DNA from: Pecten maximus
Taxonomy: Eukaryota
NCBI RefSeq assembly: GCF_902652985.1
Contig: NC_047023.1
Span: forward strand, 25,606,001-25,670,000
Length of the DNA stretch: 64,000 bases
Direction: 5' to 3'
Positions 39,583 to 51,538 of this stretch are shown here, piece by piece (within the stretch, counting starts at the first letter, position 1; every line of letters begins with the position of its first letter). A model generated the notes under the pieces. The model saw only the letters and a program-made list of their open reading frames with translations. It searched no databases and was not told the DNA's origin. The position numbers and the translations under genes are program-made.

Positions 39583-40392
39583 TCACGGCAACAATGCTAT
39601 GACGTCACGACAACATATTGATTGTCTAATCCCTTCTTTCTTATCTTCGTCCTCTTCGTCTGGAAAATCCACAAAAAATATACAAAACTCCTTTTGAATG
39701 AGTTTCCAAAGCCCAGCACAGCAAATTTTATATGAATACCGTTCGGAACATTCCACACACGGACAACAGATGCTCACTCGCCAACAAGGACAGAAGTATT
39801 CACAACACGTCTTGTCCGGGAAACATTTTCGTTTTGGTGGCCAGCTTGTGTTCCCTACACAACAACAGCACCATAGAATACAGCTCTGGGCACAATGGTC
39901 ATCAGGGCCGGGCCAGGAGACACTCGCGTGCTGTGGACAGTAAATAGGGTATGTAGTAAGTGGACAGTAAATAGGGTATGTAGTAAGTGGACAGTAAATA
40001 GGGTATGTAGTAAGTAGACAGTAAATAGGGTATGTAGTAAGTGGACAGTAAATAGGGTATGTAGTAAGTGGACAGTAAATAGGGTATGTAGTAAGTGGAC
40101 AGTAAATAGGGTATGTAGTAAGTGGACAGTAAATAAGGTATGTAGTAAGTTGACAGTAAATAGGGTATGTAGTAAGTGGACAGTAAATAGGGTATGTAGT
40201 AAGTGGACAGTAAATAGGGTATGTAGTAAGTGGACAGTAAATAGGGTATGTAGTAAGTGGACAGTAAATAGGGTATGTAGGAAGTGGACAGTAAATAGGG
40301 TATGTAGTAAGTGGACAGTAAATAGGGTATGTGGTAACAAACGCCAATCCTGACAGGTCGAGTTCAAGGGACAAACCACAGAGACTGCTCAT
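39583..40392 (-). CDS. Putative cysteine-rich protein with an in-frame 9-aa repeat (TTYPIYCPL x15)
   Basis: 269-aa ORF with ATG; unique sequence open in frame on both sides of the repeat; 20 Cys in the C-terminal ~116 aa; no family recognised. Confidence 0.45.
   Translation of the reverse strand: MSSLCGLSLELDLSGLAFVTTYPIYCPLTTYPIYCPLPTYPIYCPLTTYPIYCPLTTYPIYCPLTTYPIYCPLTTYPIYCQLTTYLIYCPLTTYPIYCPLTTYPIYCPLTTYPIYCPLTTYPIYCLLTTYPIYCPLTTYPIYCPLTTYPIYCPQHASVSWPGPDDHCAQSCILWCCCCVGNTSWPPKRKCFPDKTCCEYFCPCWRVSICCPCVECSERYSYKICCAGLWKLIQKEFCIFFVDFPDEEDEDKKEGIRQSICCRDVIALLP
39933..40337. repeat. 27-bp minisatellite, 15 copies
   Basis: Unit gtggacagtaaatagggtatgtagtaa. Confidence 0.95.
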
Positions 40393-41599: not shown

Positions 41600-44500
41600 C
41601 ATATAGGTGTGGGTGTATTGTAACTCTGTATAGAAATATACGTCTGATGTCTACTGTAACTCTATACAGAGATATATGTCTGGTGTCAACTATAACTCTG
41701 TATAGAGATATATGTCTGATGTCTACTGTAACTCTGTATAGAGATATACATCTGGTGTCTACTGTAACTCGGTATAGAGATATATGTCTGATGTCTACTG
41801 TAACTCTGTATAGAGATATATGTCTGATGTTTAATGTAACTCTGTATAGAGATATATGTCTGGTGTCTACTGTAACTCTGTATAGAGATATATGTCTGGT
41901 GTCTACTGTAACTCTGTATAAAGATATGTCTTTTCTCTACTGTAACTCTGTATAGAGATATATGTCTGATGTCTGCTGTAACTCTGTATAGAGATTTATG
42001 TCGGGTGTCTACTGTAACTCTGTATAGAGATATATGTCTGATGTCTACTGTAACTCTGTATAGAGATATTTGTCTGATGTCTACTGTAACTCTGTATAGA
42101 GATAGATGTCTGGTGTCTACTGTAACTCTGTATAGAGATATATGTCTGGTGTCTACTGTAACTCTGTATTGAGATATATGTCTGATGTCTGCTGTAACTC
42201 TGTATAGAGATAAATGTCTGATGTCTACTGTAACTCTGTATAGAGATATATGTCTGGTGTCTACTGTAACTCTGTATAGAGATATGTCTTTTCTCTACTG
42301 TAACTCTGTATAGAGATATATGTCTGATGTCTGCTGTAACTCTGTATAGAGATTTATGTCGGGTGTCTACTGTAACTATGTATAGAGATATATGTCTGAT
42401 GTATACTGTAACTCTGTATAGAGATATATGTCTGATGTCTACTGTAACTCTGTATAGAGATATTTGTCTGATGTCTACTGTAACTCTGTATAGAGATAGA
42501 TGTCTGGTGTCTACTGTAACTCTGTATAGAGATATATGTCTGGTGTCTACTGTAACTCTGTATTGAGATATATGTCTGATGTCTGCTGTAACTCTGTATA
42601 GAGATAAATGTCTGATGTCTACTGTAACTCTGTATAGAGATATATGTCTGATGTCTACTGTAACTCTGTATAGAGATATATGTCTGATGTCTATTGTAAC
42701 TCTGTATAGAGATATTTGTCTGATGTCTACTGTAACTCTGTATAGAGATAAATGTCTGATGTCTACTGTAACTCTGTATAGAGATATATGTCTGATGTCT
42801 ACTGTAACTCTGTATAGAGATATATGTCTGATGTCTGCTGTAACTCTGTATAGAGATAAATGTCTGATGTCTACTGTAACTCTGTATAGAGATATATGTC
42901 TGGTGTCTCCTGTAACTCTGTATAGAGATATATGTCTGATGTCTACTGTAACTCTGTATAGAGATATATGTCTGATGTCTACTGTAACTCTGTATAGAGA
43001 TATATGTCTGATATCTACTGTAACTCTGTATAGAGATATATGTCTGATGTCTACTGTAATTCTGTATAGATATATATGTCTGGTGTCTACTGTAACTCTG
43101 TATACAGATATATGCCTGATTTCTACTGTAACTCTGTATAGAGATATATGTCTGGTGTCTACTGTAATTCTGTATAGATATATATGTCTGGTGTCTACTG
43201 TAATTCTGTATAGATATATATGTCTGGTGTCTACTGTAACTCTGTATACAGATATATGCCTGATTTCTACTGTAACTCTGTATAGAGATATATGTCTGGT
43301 GTCTACTGTAACTCTGTATAGAGATATATGTCTGATGTCTACTGTAATTCTGTATAGATATATATGTCTGGTGTCTACTGTAACTCTGTATACAGATATA
43401 TGTCTGGTGTCTACTGTAACTATGTATAGAGATATATGTCTGGTGTCTACTGTAACTCTGTATAGAGATATATGTCTGGTGTCTACTGTAACTCTGTATA
43501 GAGATATATGTCTGGTGTCTACTGTAACTCTGTATAGAGATATATGTCTGGTGTCTACTGTAACTCTGTATAGAGATATATGTCTGGTGTCTACTGTAAC
43601 TCTGTATAGAGATATATGTCTGGTGTCTACTGTAGCTCTGTATAGAGATATATGTCTGGTGTCTACTGTAACTCTGTATAGAGATATATGTCTGGTGTCT
43701 ACTGTAACTCTGTATAGAGATATATGTCTGGTGTCTACTGTAACTCTGTATAGATATATGTCTGATGTCTACTGTAACTCTGTATAGAGATATATGTCTG
43801 GTGTCTACTGTAACTCTGTATAGAGATATATGTCTGATGTCTACTGTAACTCTGTATAGAGATATATGTCTGATGTCTACTGTAACTCTGTATAGAGATA
43901 TATGTCTGGTGTCTACTGTAACTCTGTATAGAGATATATGTCTGGTGTCTACTGTAACTCTGTATAGAGATATATGTCTGATGTCTACTGTAACTCTGTA
44001 TAGAGATATATGTCTGGTGTCTACTGTAACTCTGTATAGAGATATATGTCTGATGTCTACTGTAACTCTGTATAGAGATAAATGTCTGATGTCTACTGTA
44101 ACTCTGTATAGAGATATATGTCTTATGTCTACTGTAACTCTGTATAGAGATATATGTCTGGTGTCTACTGTAACTCTGTAAAGAGATATATGTCTGATGT
44201 CTACTGTAACTCTGTATAGAGATATATGTCTGATGTCTACTGTAACTCTGTATAGAGATATATGTCTAATGTCTACTGTAACTCTGTATAGAGATATATG
44301 TCTGGTGTCTACTGTAACTCTGTAAAAAGATATATGTCTGATGTCTACTGTAACTCTGTATAGAGATATATGTCTGGTGTCTACTGTAACTCTGTATAGA
44401 TATATGTCTGATGTCTACTGTAACTCTGTATAGAGATATATGTCTGATGTCTACTGTAACTCTGTATAGAGATATATGTCTGGTGTCTACTGTAACTCTG

Positions 44501-45122
44501 TATAGAGATATATGTCTGGTGTCTACTGTAACTCTGTATAGAGATATATGTCTGATGTCTACTGTAACTCTGTATAGAGATAAATGTCTGATGTCTACTG
44601 TAACTCTGTATAGAGATATATGTCTTATGTCTACTGTAACTCTGTATAGAGATATATGTCTGGTGTCTACTGTAACTCTGTAAAGAGATATATGTCTGAT
44701 GTCTACTGTAACTCTGTATAGAGATATATGTCTGGTGTCTACTGTAACTCTGTAAAGAGATATATGTCTGATGTCTACTGTAACTCTGTATAGAGATATA
44801 TGTCTGATGTCTACTGTAACTCTGTATAGAGATAGATGTCTAATGTCTACTGTAACTCTGTATAGAGATATATGTCTGGTGTCTACTGTAACTCTGTAAA
44901 GAGATATATGTCTGATGTCTACTGTAACTCTGTATAGAGATATATGTCTGGTGTCTACTGTAACTCTGTAAAGAGATATATGTCTGATGTCTACTGTAAC
45001 TCTGTATAGAGATATATGTCTGATGTCTACTGTAACTCTGTATAGAGATATATGTCTGATGTCTACTGTAACTCTGTATAGAGATATATGTCTGATGTCT
45101 ACTGTAACTCTGTATAGAGATC
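41600..45122. repeat. 36-bp minisatellite, ~98 copies
   Basis: Unit gtctactgtaactctgtatagagatatatgtctg(a/g)t. Confidence 0.97.
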
Positions 45123-45600
45123 AGACTGTTTTTTACATGAAATAAACTGCCGCTGTATCTGATTAACTTTGTTTAGAAACATGAACATGTTTTACAAGCA
45201 ATGCTATATATTCAAATATAGATAACAACAAATAACTGTTCCAGTATTTCTAAATATATCGACTTTTTAAAAATAAATATTGCCTCTGTTATGTAGCCTG
45301 TTACTGTCTAATTTGACAAGTTTGGCAGTCAGAATTTCGAAATTCAACTAATATCTACAGAAATATCTAAACGAATTAAAAGAAAGGTCGAAGGAAATTC
45401 TACTCACCAAAGATCTTTTAATCCCAAACTTTTTGCAAACCTTGAAAATGTATCCAGGTGTCCGATTGAATTTGATCCCCTGAAGAGCGCCACGATGTAG
45501 CCGCGAAAGTACTAGGGATACAGCAGATCTGTGTTTGACTTTTTATTTCATTATTATTATTTACCGTCACATGGACATTTTAACTTTATTCTATATATAT

Positions 45601-45976
45601 ATATATGTCAAGTAGTAATAACGACAGTACAGACAAGTAAATTGTCAAATTTTCGAGGCAATCTGCCCCTTTATCAAGACACAGGTAAATTACATACGAT
45701 CACATATAGACATAATACATGGAACAGTTACACAAATATAGTAGGTATAAACAACAAAAAGTATCATAATGTTGTAAAAATGATCCCCCTCGGTCGATAC
45801 TAAATTCGCCGAGGGCCTATTATGATTAATAAGGAAACATCTTTGGTGGTGTACAGATGCTAAAAGTAAATGAATGAAGGAATGAATGAATGAATGAATG
45901 AATGAACAAATAAATAAATAAATAAATAATATAACTTAAAGGTTTAACAGAAAAGCATCGCGGGTCGATTCGATGT
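45601..45976 (-). repeat. 3' pseudo-LTR of the Penelope element
   Basis: Matches 49744-50115 except in the (ATGA)n/(AAAT)n tract. Confidence 0.92.
45643..45681 (-). ncRNA. Minimal type I hammerhead ribozyme (U3-A8 variant)
   Basis: Minus strand: TGTC-TTGATAA-A-GGGGC agatt GCCTC-GAA-AATT-T-GACA. Confidence 0.75.
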
Positions 45977-46729
45977 GATGGCAGCGCGTGTTATGTCATG
46001 AATGTTTTTGTTATTGTTTTTTTCTTCGATATGTACATTTCGTCCCGCAAAACTCGGCCCAAACAGCGGGTTGCAGTGACAATATCGGGTGGCCAATCCC
46101 ATATTAAAATTAGTTCGTTTAAATGAAATGGAACAAGTTTTAAAAACATATAGATGTAATTGTGTAGAAAGGTAAAATTTAGACATTAGAAACCAAACGA
46201 AAAGGTGGTCGAAAGATCCTATTATCGTGACGAAAACCGAATGTCAGGACGACTCGTCACAAACCGACATCATGTACTCGCCCAACTTATTCAGCCAATC
46301 AGCTGCTGTTTCATGTAAACCAAGTCCCTAAGGAAAGTGTGTTTGTGGGGCCTGTAGGGGTTGGTCTGATTAAATAACATATGGAGTGGGTACTTCCTAT
46401 AAGCGAGAATAGAGATTATAGGAATAATGTTTGAAGAACAAACATCATACATCCCTACTAAAAATAGGATGGCGTAGGACTACAGGTGGAAAAAAAGGCG
46501 GGAATCCCCCAGATGGGGGTTTCCCCGTCCGTTGTAAGGTCCTTTGATAACACATGTGCTCCTATATGCTATGAACCTGTGCACGATATTTGTTGTGTGT
46601 GGCGAGAATAGATATTTATTCCGTCATTTTAACTCCAAGTGAATGATATAGGCGAATAAATCTGCAGTTTTGACATATAGTGAGGAGTTTCTATTGTGAG
46701 AGTCCCTCAACTACGTAACATGAGTAGGA

Positions 46730-49426
46730 TTATCTCTCATTCATGCCGAGTGGGTAGCCGGTTTGTAGTTGGTTGATCCAATGTCGTTCCCTATTCAGGC
46801 GTTGCTGGTCATTCCAACCCCTGCAGTGGTCAATGGGGACAACCTGCATGTCGTGCCATGTGTGGCTCGGCATGTTGAAATGTCTCGCTACTGGCAAGTC
46901 CTGGCGTTTCTGTTTGATAGAACAACGGTGGTTATTTATCCTCAGATTCAGTGGTGTTTTGGTCTCCCCTACATACTGCATGCTACACTTGGCACACGTA
47001 ATAAGGTATATTACATTGGCCGATGTGCAGGAGACTGACTGAATGATGCGGTATTTCTGTCCATTAGTCTCACAATTGAATGAATTGGTGTTGTGAGTGT
47101 ACGGACAGAGTTTACATCTCTTACTGCTACACGTCTCGAAACAGCCATTGGCTGAAGCATTAGATGGTGAAGGTAGATTACCACTGACTACCAAATCTTT
47201 GATGTTTTTTGGTCTGCGGTAAGCTAGTATGGGGGGTTCCGGGAAAATACCCTGGAGTTTGCTGGACGACAACACGATGTGCCAGTGTTTCTGGAAGATT
47301 GTTGACAATGCGGGCATGCCCGGATGAAAGGTTACCACACAAGGTACTCTTCCAGTTTTCGGCCTGTCTTTGTATTCCAGTGTACTCGCCCTGTCCAATT
47401 CTTTCACCCTATCAATTTCACGATCTATTAGGGCTGCGCCATATCCTCTATTGAGAAGATGAGATCTAAGCTCTACACAACGACGTCTGAAGTCATCGTC
47501 GTCGGAGACGATACGCCTGATTCTCAAAATCTGGGAGTATGGAATGCTCCTTGTAGTGTGGGGTGGGTGACAACTGGACGGGCGAAGGTACTGGTGAGTG
47601 TCCGTGGGTTTACTGTATAAATCCGTGTGTATTTCTCCGTTGACGAGTGTGGAACAGGTGTCCAAAAAAGTATTTTTCTCTTCGGAGATGTCGGCAGTAA
47701 ACTTAATGGTCCGATGGAACTCATTCGCGAAACGAACGAATTCCTCGAGGGACTCTCTACCGGATGTCCACTTGATCTCGATGTCGTCAATGAATCTAAA
47801 CCAGCTGAGTGGTTTCGATGGGGCCGCTATTAGAAGCCTTGTCTCGAGATGGCCCATAAACACATTCGCGTAAGATGGTGCCATTTTGGTGCCCATTGCC
47901 GTACCACTAACTTGAAGATAGTGCTCTCCGTTGAATGTAAAGTTGTTCAGCGTGAGCACTAACTTAAGAAGTTCCACTAAACTATCTGTTGAAGGGTGCT
48001 TATTCCTCCGAGTGTCCCAAGCAGAACGGCAGGCTATGATTCCGTCCTCATGTGGGATGTTGGTGTAGAGGGAAACCACATCCATGGTGACCAGGAGTGT
48101 GTCATCAGGTAGATTACTACATGGCGTCTTTTTAAGGTAGTCCGTGGTGTCTTTCAAGTAAGATGGCAAGCTCTCGACATGGGATCTCAAGTGGAAGTCG
48201 ATGAACTTTGAGATTTTTTCTGTGGGGTGGCCAATCGAATTGATGATGGGTCGACCGGGGTTACCAGCCTTGTGGAATTTTGGAAGGAGATAGAAATTCC
48301 CTGCTCGTGGGGAATCGCAGCGCAAGAATTCAGCTGTATCCTTGTCAATATCTCCTTTAAGTTGTATCCTGCTGATGGCGGCATTGACCTTATTAGCATG
48401 CTCCACCGTTAGATCCTTATCCACTTTACGGTAGAACGTCTCATTCGACAATTGGCAATTGGCCTCCTGGATGTAGTCCTCTCTGTTCATGACAACTACT
48501 GCAGAGCCTTTATCGGCTGGTTTGATGACAATGTCAGTGTTGCGTTTCAGAGCCTGAAGTGCCTTGCGCTCACCCATCCCTAGGTTGTCTCTTTGGGTGT
48601 GAGTCATGGTGGTGTGATCGGATATCTCCTGTTTTACAGCATCTATGAATGCCTCGAGTGCTGGGACTTTACTGGGTGGAGGGTTCCATGTGCTTTTTTT
48701 CTTAAATGGATTAACAGGGGAAACCTCTGTGTCAGGGTCATCCGAGTCTTCGTCTTTGGCGAAATGAACGCGAAGAAGGAGTCTTCTGTAGAAGCTCTCC
48801 ATATCCTGCACCAACTCGGCATTGTTGGGATTCCGTGGGATGGGGCAGAAATTCAACCCTTTAGAGAGAACTGAATTTTCTTGGGCACTCAGAGTGTGGT
48901 CCGAGAGATTGACAACTGTGTTGACCATTTGCATGGTTCCCTTATGTTTGGGGCGTAGTCTTCTCTTTCGGGGTTTGTGGCTTGTTACTGGTGGAGTGAT
49001 GTTCATCTCAGGTGGTTGGCCCAGACCGTCACGTTGGAATTTGTTAATTTGTTTTTGACGGAGGGAGGTACGTCTTTAGCTCTCAAAATGGTGTATTTTT
49101 TGGACAAGCGGGTTCGTATCATAACCCGGTGCAGTTTTCAAATTGTTAAGATTCTGGGCCAGCCGTTTGTGTGCAGTGGTCAGTTTTTTGCTACATACTC
49201 CCTGTAAGTGTTGCAATAGTTTCATTTGGTAAACATGTAGGATCCTATCGGAACGTGCTATGGCTGAATTGGACATAGTGCCAATGTTTAGTGTGCACTT
49301 GAATCGTAGGCCTTTAGGAACGATGTCTGCCTGTAGGTACGAGTTGTAATTAATAGGGTGGTGTTGTAAATTAACTACCCGTAGGGCCTCTTTCTTAGTT
49401 GTTTTATACATGACTAAAGGATCCAT
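46730..49426 (-). CDS. Penelope RT-GIY-YIG polyprotein (899 codons) with one in-frame TAA at 49076-49078
   Basis: IVPKGL N-terminal motif, KPADKG, PGRPI, DVVSLYTNIP, GTAMG, RFIDD, FLD, CSSKRCKLC linker, VIYLITC..YVGET..R..HR..HF..H..E. ORFs 49076..49552 and 46730..49006 share a frame and are separated by the stop plus 23 open codons. Confidence 0.92.
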
Positions 49427-49743
49427 TGTTGTCGTAACAGTGGCTAAATGTAAACAGGTGTAAACTAGACAAATTACGGTGATATTGGGACAATACGGGT
49501 ACACAGACAGACAACAGAATATTACGGTGATATTGGGACAATACGGGTACACAGACAGAAAACAAAATATACTTAAATAAAAGAAACGGATTGGATAAAC
49601 CGGATCACAATATAGGTAGCCTAGATTATGATGCGTATTACTTCGTGTGATAGGTAGGGTCTAGTAAGTAATAACGACGGTATAAACCAATATAGGTACT
49701 GGATCCTAACAAACAAATGTTGGATGCGTATTACTAGAAATAG

Positions 49744-50115
49744 ATATATGTCAAGTAGTAATAACGACAGTACAGACAAGTAAATTGTCAAATTTTCGAG
49801 GCAATCTGCCCCTTTATCAAGACACAGGTAAATTACATACGATCACATATAGACATAATACATGGAACAGTTACACAAATATAGTAGGTATAAACAACAA
49901 AAAGTATCATAATGTTGTAAAAATGATCCCCCTCGGTCGATACTAAATTCGCCGAGGGCCTATTATGATTAATAAGGAAACATCTTTGGTGGTGTACAGA
50001 TGCTAAAAGTAAATGAATGAATGAATGAATGAATGAATGAACAAATAAATAAATAAATAAATAAATAATATAACTTAAAGGTTTAACAGAAAAGCATCGC
50101 GGGTCGATTCGATGT
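49744..50115 (-). repeat. 5' pseudo-LTR of the Penelope element
   Basis: Direct repeat of 45601-45976. Confidence 0.92.
49786..49824 (-). ncRNA. Minimal type I hammerhead ribozyme, second copy
   Basis: Identical motif in the 5' pseudo-LTR. Confidence 0.75.
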
Positions 50116-51392
50116 AGGAGACAGGTATTGTATCATTAATAGGTAATGTGTTGATGTAGGTGACATATATTGTATCATTACTAGGTAATGTGTTGATGTA
50201 GGTGACAGGTATTGTATCATTACTAGGTGATGTGTTGATGTAGGTGACAGGTATTGTATCATTACTAGGTGATGTGTTGATGTAGGTGACAGGTATTGTA
50301 TCATTACTAGGTGATGTGTTGATGTAGGTGACAGGTATTGTATCATTACTAGGTAATGTGTTGATGTAGGTGACATATATTGTATCATTACTAGGTGATG
50401 TGTTGATATAGGTGACAGGTATTGTATCATTACTAGGTAATGTGTTGATGTAGGTGACAGGTATTGTATCATTACTAGGTGATGTGTTGATGTAGGTGAC
50501 AGGTATTGTATCATTACTAGGTGATGTGTTGATGTAGGTGACAGGTATTGTATCATTACTAGGTAATGTGTTGATGTAGGTGACAGGTATTGTATCATTA
50601 CTAGGTGATGTGTTGATGTAGGAGACAGGTATTGTATCATTACTAAGTGATGTGTTGATGTAGGTGACAGGTATTGTATCATTACTAGGTGATGTGTTGA
50701 TGTAGGTGACAGGTATTGTATCATTACTAGGTAATGTGTTGATGTAGGTGACAGGTATTGTATCATTACTAGGTAATGTGTTGATGTAGGTGACAGGTAT
50801 TGTATCATTACTAGGTAATGTGTTGATGTATGTGACAGGTATTGTATCATTACTAGGTAATGTGTTGATGTAGGTGACAGGTATTGTATCATTACTAGGT
50901 GATGTGTTGATGTAGGTGACAGGTATTGTATCATTACTAGGTAATGTGTTGATGTGGGTGACAGGTATTGTATCATTACTAGGTAATGTGTTGATGTAGG
51001 TGACAGGTATTGTATCATTACTAGGTGATGTGTTGATGTAGGTGACAGGTATTGTATCATTACTAGGTGATGTGTTGATGTAGGTGACAGGTATTGTATC
51101 ATTAATAGGTGATGTGTTGATGTAGGAGACAGGTATTGTATCATTACTAGGTAATGTGTTGATGTAGGTGACATATATTGTATCATTACTAGGTGATGTG
51201 CTGATGTAGGTGACAGGTATTGTATCATTACTAGGTGATGTGTTGATGTAGGTGACAGGTATTGTATCATTACTAGGTAATGTGTTGATGTAGGTGACAG
51301 GTATTGTATCATTACTAGGTGATGTGTTGATGTAGGTGACAGGTATTGTATCATTACTAGGTAATGTGTTGATGTGGGTGACAGGTATTGCA
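50111..51392. repeat. 42-bp minisatellite, ~30 copies
   Basis: Unit gatgtaggtgacaggtattgtatcattactaggt(g/a)atgtgtt. Confidence 0.96.
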
Positions 51393-51538
51393 TCATAGAC
51401 AGTTTGTTGTAAGTTACATATGTTGTATTATTACCTGAGAGAGGGTTGTAGTATATGACATGTATTGAATCATGAGTAGACAATGTGTTGTAGTAGGTGA
51501 CGTGTATAATAACTGACATTATGTTGTGTTAGGAGCCA

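What the first reader, a model, noticed from the sequence alone, without database searches (positions are those of the whole stretch)
45643..49824. Paired non-canonical hammerhead ribozymes in the Penelope pseudo-LTRs
Seen on the minus strand in both repeats: stem I TGTC/GACA; core TTGATAA instead of CTGANGA, a compensatory U3-A8 swap of the C3-G8 pair; an extra A; stem II GGGGC/GCCTC; GAAA; and a stem III reduced to the palindrome AATT. Known: Penelope-like elements carry minimal type I hammerheads thought to cleave as dimers through a palindromic stem III. Inference: the two copies 4143 nt apart could pair and release a unit-length, possibly circularisable, RNA. Searches restricted to CUGANGA would miss this motif.
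Basis: partly seen in the sequence, partly recalled or inferred. Interest (0 to 1): 0.7.

Follow-up and report, generated by a model that had tools for sequence, protein, structure and literature searches.

The report
Penelope retrotransposon hammerheads with U-A core
Both end repeats of a jumping gene in a probable scallop genome carry a real hammerhead (self-cutting RNA) motif of an already published variant type; related copies suggest it likely trims only the front end of the RNA now and then, rather than cutting out a whole unit, and cutting itself is untested.

Summary
Observation confirmed. Identical 39-nt minimal type I hammerhead motifs (U3-A8 core, extra A, AAUU palindrome, U17) lie 4143 nt apart in the two pseudo-LTRs of a Penelope-like element whose ORF has one premature stop. 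The motif is fixed in a family of about 1,300 genomic copies. It is 36/39 identical in a sister family only 64% alike in protein, and all three differences keep the fold. It is not new: Cervera and de la Pena 2014 describe U3-A8, the extra base, the palindrome, the dimer and the circle model, and list an oyster motif with the same stem I and palindrome. This scan has noted such motifs 29 times in at least 12 genomes. The release model is only partly supported: copies are primed 45 or 134 nt downstream of an uncut 3' hammerhead, so an RNA cut at both sites cannot be the template unless re-ligated. Two of nine near-full-length copies begin within 2 nt of the predicted cut (post hoc, P about 0.002-0.02), a hint of 5'-end cleavage; short copies show no significant excess there. 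No RNA ends could be read.

The parts
49786..49824 (-). Upstream minimal type I hammerhead motif, U3-A8 core; predicted cut between 49790 and 49789
45643..45681 (-). Downstream hammerhead motif, identical; predicted cut between 45647 and 45646
49740..50115 (-). Upstream pseudo-LTR (5'-truncated tandem copy of the 3' end), joined to a 42-bp minisatellite through about 5 nt of shared sequence
45600..45976 (-). Downstream pseudo-LTR, ending about 45 nt past the predicted cut (short end) in a (TA)n run
46730..49426 (-). Penelope-like ORF, 898 codons: RT, CX4CXXC linker, GIY-YIG endonuclease with CCHH residues; one in-frame TAA at codon 117 (49078-49076)
   Evidence: frame is open at this place in L142 and L138
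49655..49743 (-). Optional 'tail' of about 88 nt between the two fixed 3' ends of genomic copies (about +45 and +134 from the cut); both ends follow a duplicated motif; inferred RT start sites
49775..49789 (-). 5-bp hairpin starting at the first base after the cut; competes with stem I (same at 45646-45632); predicted only
   Evidence: kept with a compensatory change in most family B copies
49473..49570 (.). Two copies of a 48-bp repeat in the 5' UTR (expanded in L277)

Best explanation
[quoted passage not shown] Shown: the motif, its fixation, pair-keeping changes between lineages, and 3' ends of copies at about +45 and +134 beyond an intact hammerhead. Inferred: the element's RT binds just 3' of the hammerhead and primes there from a nicked (TA)n target; two hammerheads (the two repeats of one transcript, or two RNAs held by the protein) pair through AAUU and swapped stem I strands, probably with protein help; a template cut at the 5' site gives a copy that starts at the cut, an uncut one gives a copy with an upstream pseudo-LTR like the window's. 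The window copy has a premature stop and would need protein from another copy.
For: Conservation island: 36/39 identity between families A (window) and B (L138) against median 67% in coding and 44% in 3' UTR windows; the 3 differences are one compensatory stem I swap and one A-U to G-U. Six hand-picked lineage representatives: 66 of 66 cells paired, 2 compensatory pairs, slid controls 35-55%. The 4 recurrent haplotypes (48 of 62 copies) all keep the fold and vary at N17 (U or C). An unrelated U3-A8 repeat with other stems and an AGCU palindrome and C3-G8 families with ACGU, AGCU, AUAU occur in the genome. 3' ends lie at two fixed sites beyond an intact motif. Of 9 copies that hold the ORF start and reach the cut position, 2 (L139, L141; different flanks, different 3' ends) begin at -2 to 0; P 0.002-0.02 under a background of 0.3-0.5% ends per nt. 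In the anole Poseidon element the hammerhead cuts only with protein, cutting is not needed for insertion, and RT starts at two internal sites (PMC11167929).
Against: No cleavage data. The cut-site signal is 2 copies, post hoc, both in family B, both blurred by 2 nt of matching T; a third copy (L142) ends at -10, inside the motif, which fits an RT stall at stem II on an uncut RNA. Short copies show no significant excess at -2 to 0: 8 of 31 (A), 5 of 14 (B), together P 0.10, with a few likely duplicated loci still counted; the density of 5' ends near the cut is only about 1.3-1.5 times that in a control window upstream (my by-eye count and capture correction). In context the hammerhead fold is a minority (stem I probability 0.07-0.36) and the dimer is 6 kcal/mol or more worse than two monomers. 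An older lineage spread with a U3-G8 wobble, so a perfect 3-8 pair was not essential. Anole RNA-seq showed no read ends at the cut site.
Confidence: 0.55

Rival explanations
1. One reading: the two hammerheads pair, both cut, the 4143-nt unit is ligated into a circle, and RT copies the circle for more than one round, which makes the pseudo-LTR tandem.
For: A circle restores the intact hammerhead with 5' UTR sequence behind it, which is what every 3' end shows; 6 of the 9 near-full-length copies extend 90 nt or more upstream of the cut; the model is in PMC4209133.
Against: A circle has no end at the cut, yet L139 and L141 start there; uncut tandem or read-through transcripts explain the same anatomy; the anole element uses unprocessed RNA in vitro; the dimer is weak by calculation. 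No circle data: only assembled contigs were served.
Confidence: 0.25
2. The fold is kept as a binding or positioning site for the element's protein next to the RT start sites, or is a slowly decaying ribozyme; cleavage is negligible in vivo.
For: Conservation between A and B extends past the motif on both sides (up to 85% just upstream); U3-G8 copies multiplied; hammerhead mutants do not affect insertion in vitro; Naiad elements thrive without hammerheads (PMC8557442 passages).
Against: G5, A6, A9, G12-A14, the palindrome and H17 are kept in all recurrent haplotypes and in unrelated families whose stems differ; the young, abundant families have the Watson-Crick U-A pair (99 of the first 100 listed); two full-length copies start at the cut.
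Confidence: 0.17
3. Chance resemblance or a decayed canonical hammerhead in one dead copy.
For: Rfam finds nothing; the ORF is broken.
Against: 1519 against 147 control matches; U3 and A8 fixed across two families; compensatory changes; no C3 among the 17 G8 copies.
Confidence: 0.02

Closest known systems
U3-A8 minimal hammerheads of Schistosoma mansoni Cercyon Penelope-like elements (Cervera and de la Pena 2014, PMC4209133)
   Same: U3-A8 core (about 1,300 hits there; one listed motif has the same UUGAUAA-A core, another sits in both repeats of a full Cercyon copy), extra base between 9 and 10.1, G10.1-C11.1, short stem I, palindromic 15.2-16.2, position in both pseudo-LTRs, dimer and circle proposal.
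   Different: Other host and element family; AAUU palindrome; 6-bp stem II. Their cleavage assays used family Sm1, which by my reading of the text-converted figure is a C3-G8 family.
Crassostrea gigas PLE minimal hammerhead (same paper, Fig. S3, Table S1)
   Same: Same GUC/GAC stem I, AAUU palindrome, U17, GGG-starting stem II and similar downstream bases; a bivalve relative.
   Different: Canonical C3-G8 core. Descent from a common element is likely but was not tested by protein.
Saccoglossus kowalevskii(1) PLE hammerhead with U3-G8 (same Fig. S3)
   Same: Wobble core like the older lineage C found here.
   Different: Other stems and host.
PAc, Poseidon element of Anolis carolinensis (Frangieh et al. 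2024, PMC11167929)
   Same: Hammerhead in the pseudo-LTR, two RT start sites downstream of it that define an optional tail, AT-rich targets.
   Different: C3-G8 core, hammerhead overlaps the ORF start; tail classically 30-40 nt against about 88 nt here; Poseidon clade lacks the linker cysteines seen here.
Neptune/Nematis clades of EN+ Penelope-like elements (Craig et al. 2021, PMC8557442)
   Same: RT then C-terminal GIY-YIG, CX2-5CxxC linker, CCHH, DKG motif, tandem and inverted insertions, tail at one end, microsatellite targets.
   Different: Neptune versus Nematis not resolved: no labelled references were on hand.

Membership tests
Minimal type I hammerhead of metazoan PLEs | Core YUGANRA + GAAA + UH with a 3-8 Watson-Crick pair | tested here: met
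   U3-A8, H17 = U or C
Minimal type I hammerhead of metazoan PLEs | Short stem I, stem II with G10.1-C11.1, one unpaired base between 9 and 10.1 | tested here: met
Minimal type I hammerhead of metazoan PLEs | Stem III reduced to a palindrome at 15.2-16.2 | tested here: met
   AAUU; other families in the genome use ACGU, AGCU, AUAU
Minimal type I hammerhead of metazoan PLEs | Lies in both pseudo-LTRs of an RT + GIY-YIG element | tested here: met
   also L140 in family B
Minimal type I hammerhead of metazoan PLEs | Covariation among family members | tested here: met
   2 compensatory stem I pairs, 3 one-sided pair-keeping changes in 6 hand-picked lineages; 15 of 500 shuffles as high; no double change in stem II within the A/B/C group
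Minimal type I hammerhead of metazoan PLEs | Self-cleavage as a dimer | not testable with these tools
   Only indirect: calculation unfavourable; 2 of 9 long copies begin at the cut
Rfam hammerhead families | Covariance-model hit | tested here: not met
   No hammerhead hit at E up to 10 in 45400-50300
EN+ Penelope-like element | One ORF with RT and C-terminal GIY-YIG; pseudo-LTRs; 5'-truncated and inverted copies | tested here: met
Neptune/Nematis clade | CX2-5CxxC linker between RT and EN; CCHH motif | tested here: met
   Read from the translation against the definition in PMC8557442
Neptune/Nematis clade | Placement in an RT tree with named references | not tested
   No labelled reference sequences among the 120 listed homologs

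The most novel reading that the evidence does not exclude
The genomic copies record how a Penelope hammerhead is used in the germ line: the U3-A8 ribozyme, reached from C3-G8 through a U3-G8 wobble stage that still transposed, cuts the 5' copy only and so sets the start of full-length insertions, while a two-RT complex primes the two target ends at two different start sites (16 of 22 head-to-head pairs join one short-tail and one long-tail arm).
Probability: 0.3. Interest if true: 0.55.

Novelty: new member of a known kind. Interest (0 to 1): 0.27.

Why it matters
The motif itself adds only another host to a published variant. What the hammerheads of Penelope-like elements do in vivo is still open (stated in PMC8557442 and PMC11167929). 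This family is young, abundant and has two full-length copies starting at the predicted cut and two fixed RT start sites, so it is a usable test bed for deciding between 5'-end trimming, circles and no cleavage.

Tried and rejected
Rfam scan: no hammerhead hit. RNA runs: 24 listed, all as assembled contigs; four laid on 45985-50115 hold scattered pieces, deepest over the hammerhead and tail, which mirrors the 3'-biased copy number; no starts, ends or circles can be read, no silent control stretch was laid, so no claim of expression is made. Pile-up of short copies at the cut: looked striking in the raw lists but is not significant after mapping breakpoints and against a control window. The automated control count (22 of 30) includes older variants that are not truncated; I counted about 14-16 by eye; 7 of the 37 control matches were not fetched. 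Idea that U3-A8 is decay of C3-G8 in this copy: rejected. Idea that lineage C is fixed for U3-G8: 5 of 5 exact matches have G8 but C-like copies with A8 exist (L035, L227, L232), so it is mixed. Link of family D to a PLE ORF: no tblastn hit in the loci fetched; only an inverted pair and TA-rich ends suggest it. MAFFT across unrelated families did not hold stem II in register, so pair counts used six equal-length relatives only. Lunse et al. (RNA Biol 14:1499) and Przybilski and Hammann 2007 (RNA 13:1625) are not held; only their titles were seen in reference lists, so published assays of U3-A8 may exist that I could not read. Searches for C3U/G8A (0 papers) and passages in PMC3088659 gave nothing on U3-A8 activity. 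Searches listed no paper on full-length PLE copies starting at the cut, judged from listings only.

Full report
Observation. On the minus strand the same 39-nt motif starts at 49824 and 45681, 4143 nt apart, inside two direct repeats of about 375 nt that differ only in a simple-repeat tract. It parses as a type I hammerhead: 4-bp stem I, core UUGAUAA, an extra A, 6-bp stem II with one G-U, GAA, palindrome AAUU and U17. Alone it folds that way (z -2.74). Rfam has no hit.

The element. Between the repeats lies an 898-codon ORF (49426-46730) with one in-frame TAA at codon 117, RVT_1 and GIY-YIG domains, a CX4CXXC linker and CCHH residues, which by the definitions in PMC8557442 (passages read) point to the Neptune or Nematis clade. 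The nearest named proteins are annotated from the scallop Pecten maximus (97% and 72%), then other bivalves and amphioxus, so the host is probably a scallop. The frame is open at that codon in L142 and L138, so the window copy is likely non-autonomous. The 3' end runs into (TA)n; the 5' end joins a 42-bp minisatellite.

Family evidence. A loose U3-A8 pattern has 1519 matches against 147 for the control; about 88 of the first 100 listed belong to this group (counted by eye). A tight pattern gives 894 matches, 99 of the first 100 with A8. In 62 copies taken from loci chosen by repeat or protein similarity, four recurrent haplotypes cover 48 copies and all keep the fold; the 14 singletons include breaking changes as expected of dead copies. 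Family B, 64% alike in protein, matches 36 of 39 bases while 3' UTR windows have a median of 44% and coding windows 67%; the three differences are a C-G to U-A swap in stem I and A-U to G-U in stem II. Six hand-picked representatives give 66 of 66 cells paired and two compensatory pairs (small, related sample). The genome also has an unrelated U3-A8 repeat with an AGCU palindrome and C3-G8 minimal hammerheads (330 against 54 control) with other palindromes. Seventeen copies have G8; 16 have U3, one G3, none C3. About ten of them share the flanks of an old lineage C (copies 73-90% alike), which also has A8 members. With the C3-G8 oyster motif in the literature this suggests a path C-G, U-G, U-A; the order is inferred, no tree was built.

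What is known. Cervera and de la Pena 2014 (PMC4209133; parts 1-2 of 4 of the main text and parts 1-2 of 3 of supplement 2 read; supplement 1 could not be searched) report the U3-A8 variant in Schistosoma Cercyon elements, the extra base, the palindrome, weak dimer cleavage, and the circle model. Their Fig. S3 lists an oyster PLE motif with the same stem I, AAUU and U17, and a U3-G8 motif from an acorn worm. The review PMC6765202 (passages and half of one section) repeats the model. Frangieh et al. 2024 (PMC11167929, parts 1-2 of 4) show for an anole element that RT starts at two internal sites, that the hammerhead cuts only with protein, and that cutting is not needed for insertion in vitro. 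The preprint 10.64898/2026.07.22.740005 (part 1 of 5) and PMC3884650 (passages) added background only. The scan has 29 earlier findings with these words in at least 12 genomes.

Mechanism. Copies end at two fixed places, about +45 and +134 from the predicted cut (+48 and +140 in family B), each after a duplicated motif and usually in (TA)n. So the template had an intact bond at the 3' hammerhead: it was uncut or re-ligated, and a linear RNA cut at both sites cannot be it. Following a lead from finding e1-8659544, I mapped 5' ends. Among the 23 matches to the ORF's N-terminus, 9 distinct copies reach the cut position; they end at -2, -2, -10, -92, -159, -241, -326 (the window) and beyond the reference in two. 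L139 and L141 are whole family B units with different flanks and different 3' ends. Two of nine within 2 nt has P 0.002-0.02, but it is post hoc and blurred by matching T bases. Short copies do not pile up significantly at the cut (13 of 45 at -2 to 0, P 0.10). By calculation the double hammerhead (-16.6 to -18.2 kcal/mol, flanks left unpaired, no tertiary terms) is worse than two monomers (-22.6 or lower), and with flanks stem I has probability 0.07-0.36 because of an upstream alternative hairpin and a hairpin starting at +1. I therefore favour a weak, likely protein-assisted ribozyme that sometimes trims the 5' site (0.55) over obligate double cut and circle (0.25) or no useful cleavage (0.17). 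RNA data could not decide: only contigs were served.

Side result. Of 22 head-to-head pairs in the fetched loci, 16 join one short-tail and one long-tail arm, 5 two short, 1 two long (P 0.008-0.03; my classifier calls any end without the tail motif short). This fits the published remark that the tail is often at one end only and a dimeric protein priming two target ends; that reading is inference.

Verdict. Real, well conserved, and of a published kind. Interest 0.27; the only fresh elements are the hint of 5'-end cleavage in full-length copies, the wobble-stage lineage and the paired use of two start sites.

Noticed in passing
L005, L012, L021, L027, L045, L055, L187, L194, L205 and others: Head-to-head pairs mostly combine one short-tail and one long-tail 3' end (16 of 22).
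   Followed up: partly
L091-L100, L102, L106, L158-L162: Old lineage with U3-G8 wobble core in many copies, U3-A8 in some (L035, L227, L232).
   Followed up: partly
L143-L149, L153-L156: Independent U3-A8 hammerhead repeat with 5-bp stem I, A-U-rich stem II, AGCU palindrome and C17; no ORF found nearby.
   Followed up: partly
L061-L090: At least two C3-G8 minimal hammerhead families; G10.1-C11.1 followed by a G-U pair recurs in families A, B, D and these two (by eye).
   Followed up: partly
G000:C10:14492450-14493135: 30-bp tandem repeat whose unit matches the U3-A8 core pattern but has no good stem II.
   Followed up: no
L164, L270: Tandem array of a roughly 67-bp unit made from the tail region (+78 to +134) of the element.
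   Followed up: no
L182, L187, L194-L197, L259: Tiny inverted insertions made only of sequence from about the cut site to the two 3' ends.
   Followed up: partly
window 41619-45121, 50111-51396, 39933-40337: Minisatellites of 36, 42 and 27 bp around the element; they give long spurious open frames.
   Followed up: no
L138 (G000:C7:33871000-33878000): Family B copy with an uninterrupted ORF (929-codon open frame) but no upstream repeat; starts at +67.
   Followed up: partly
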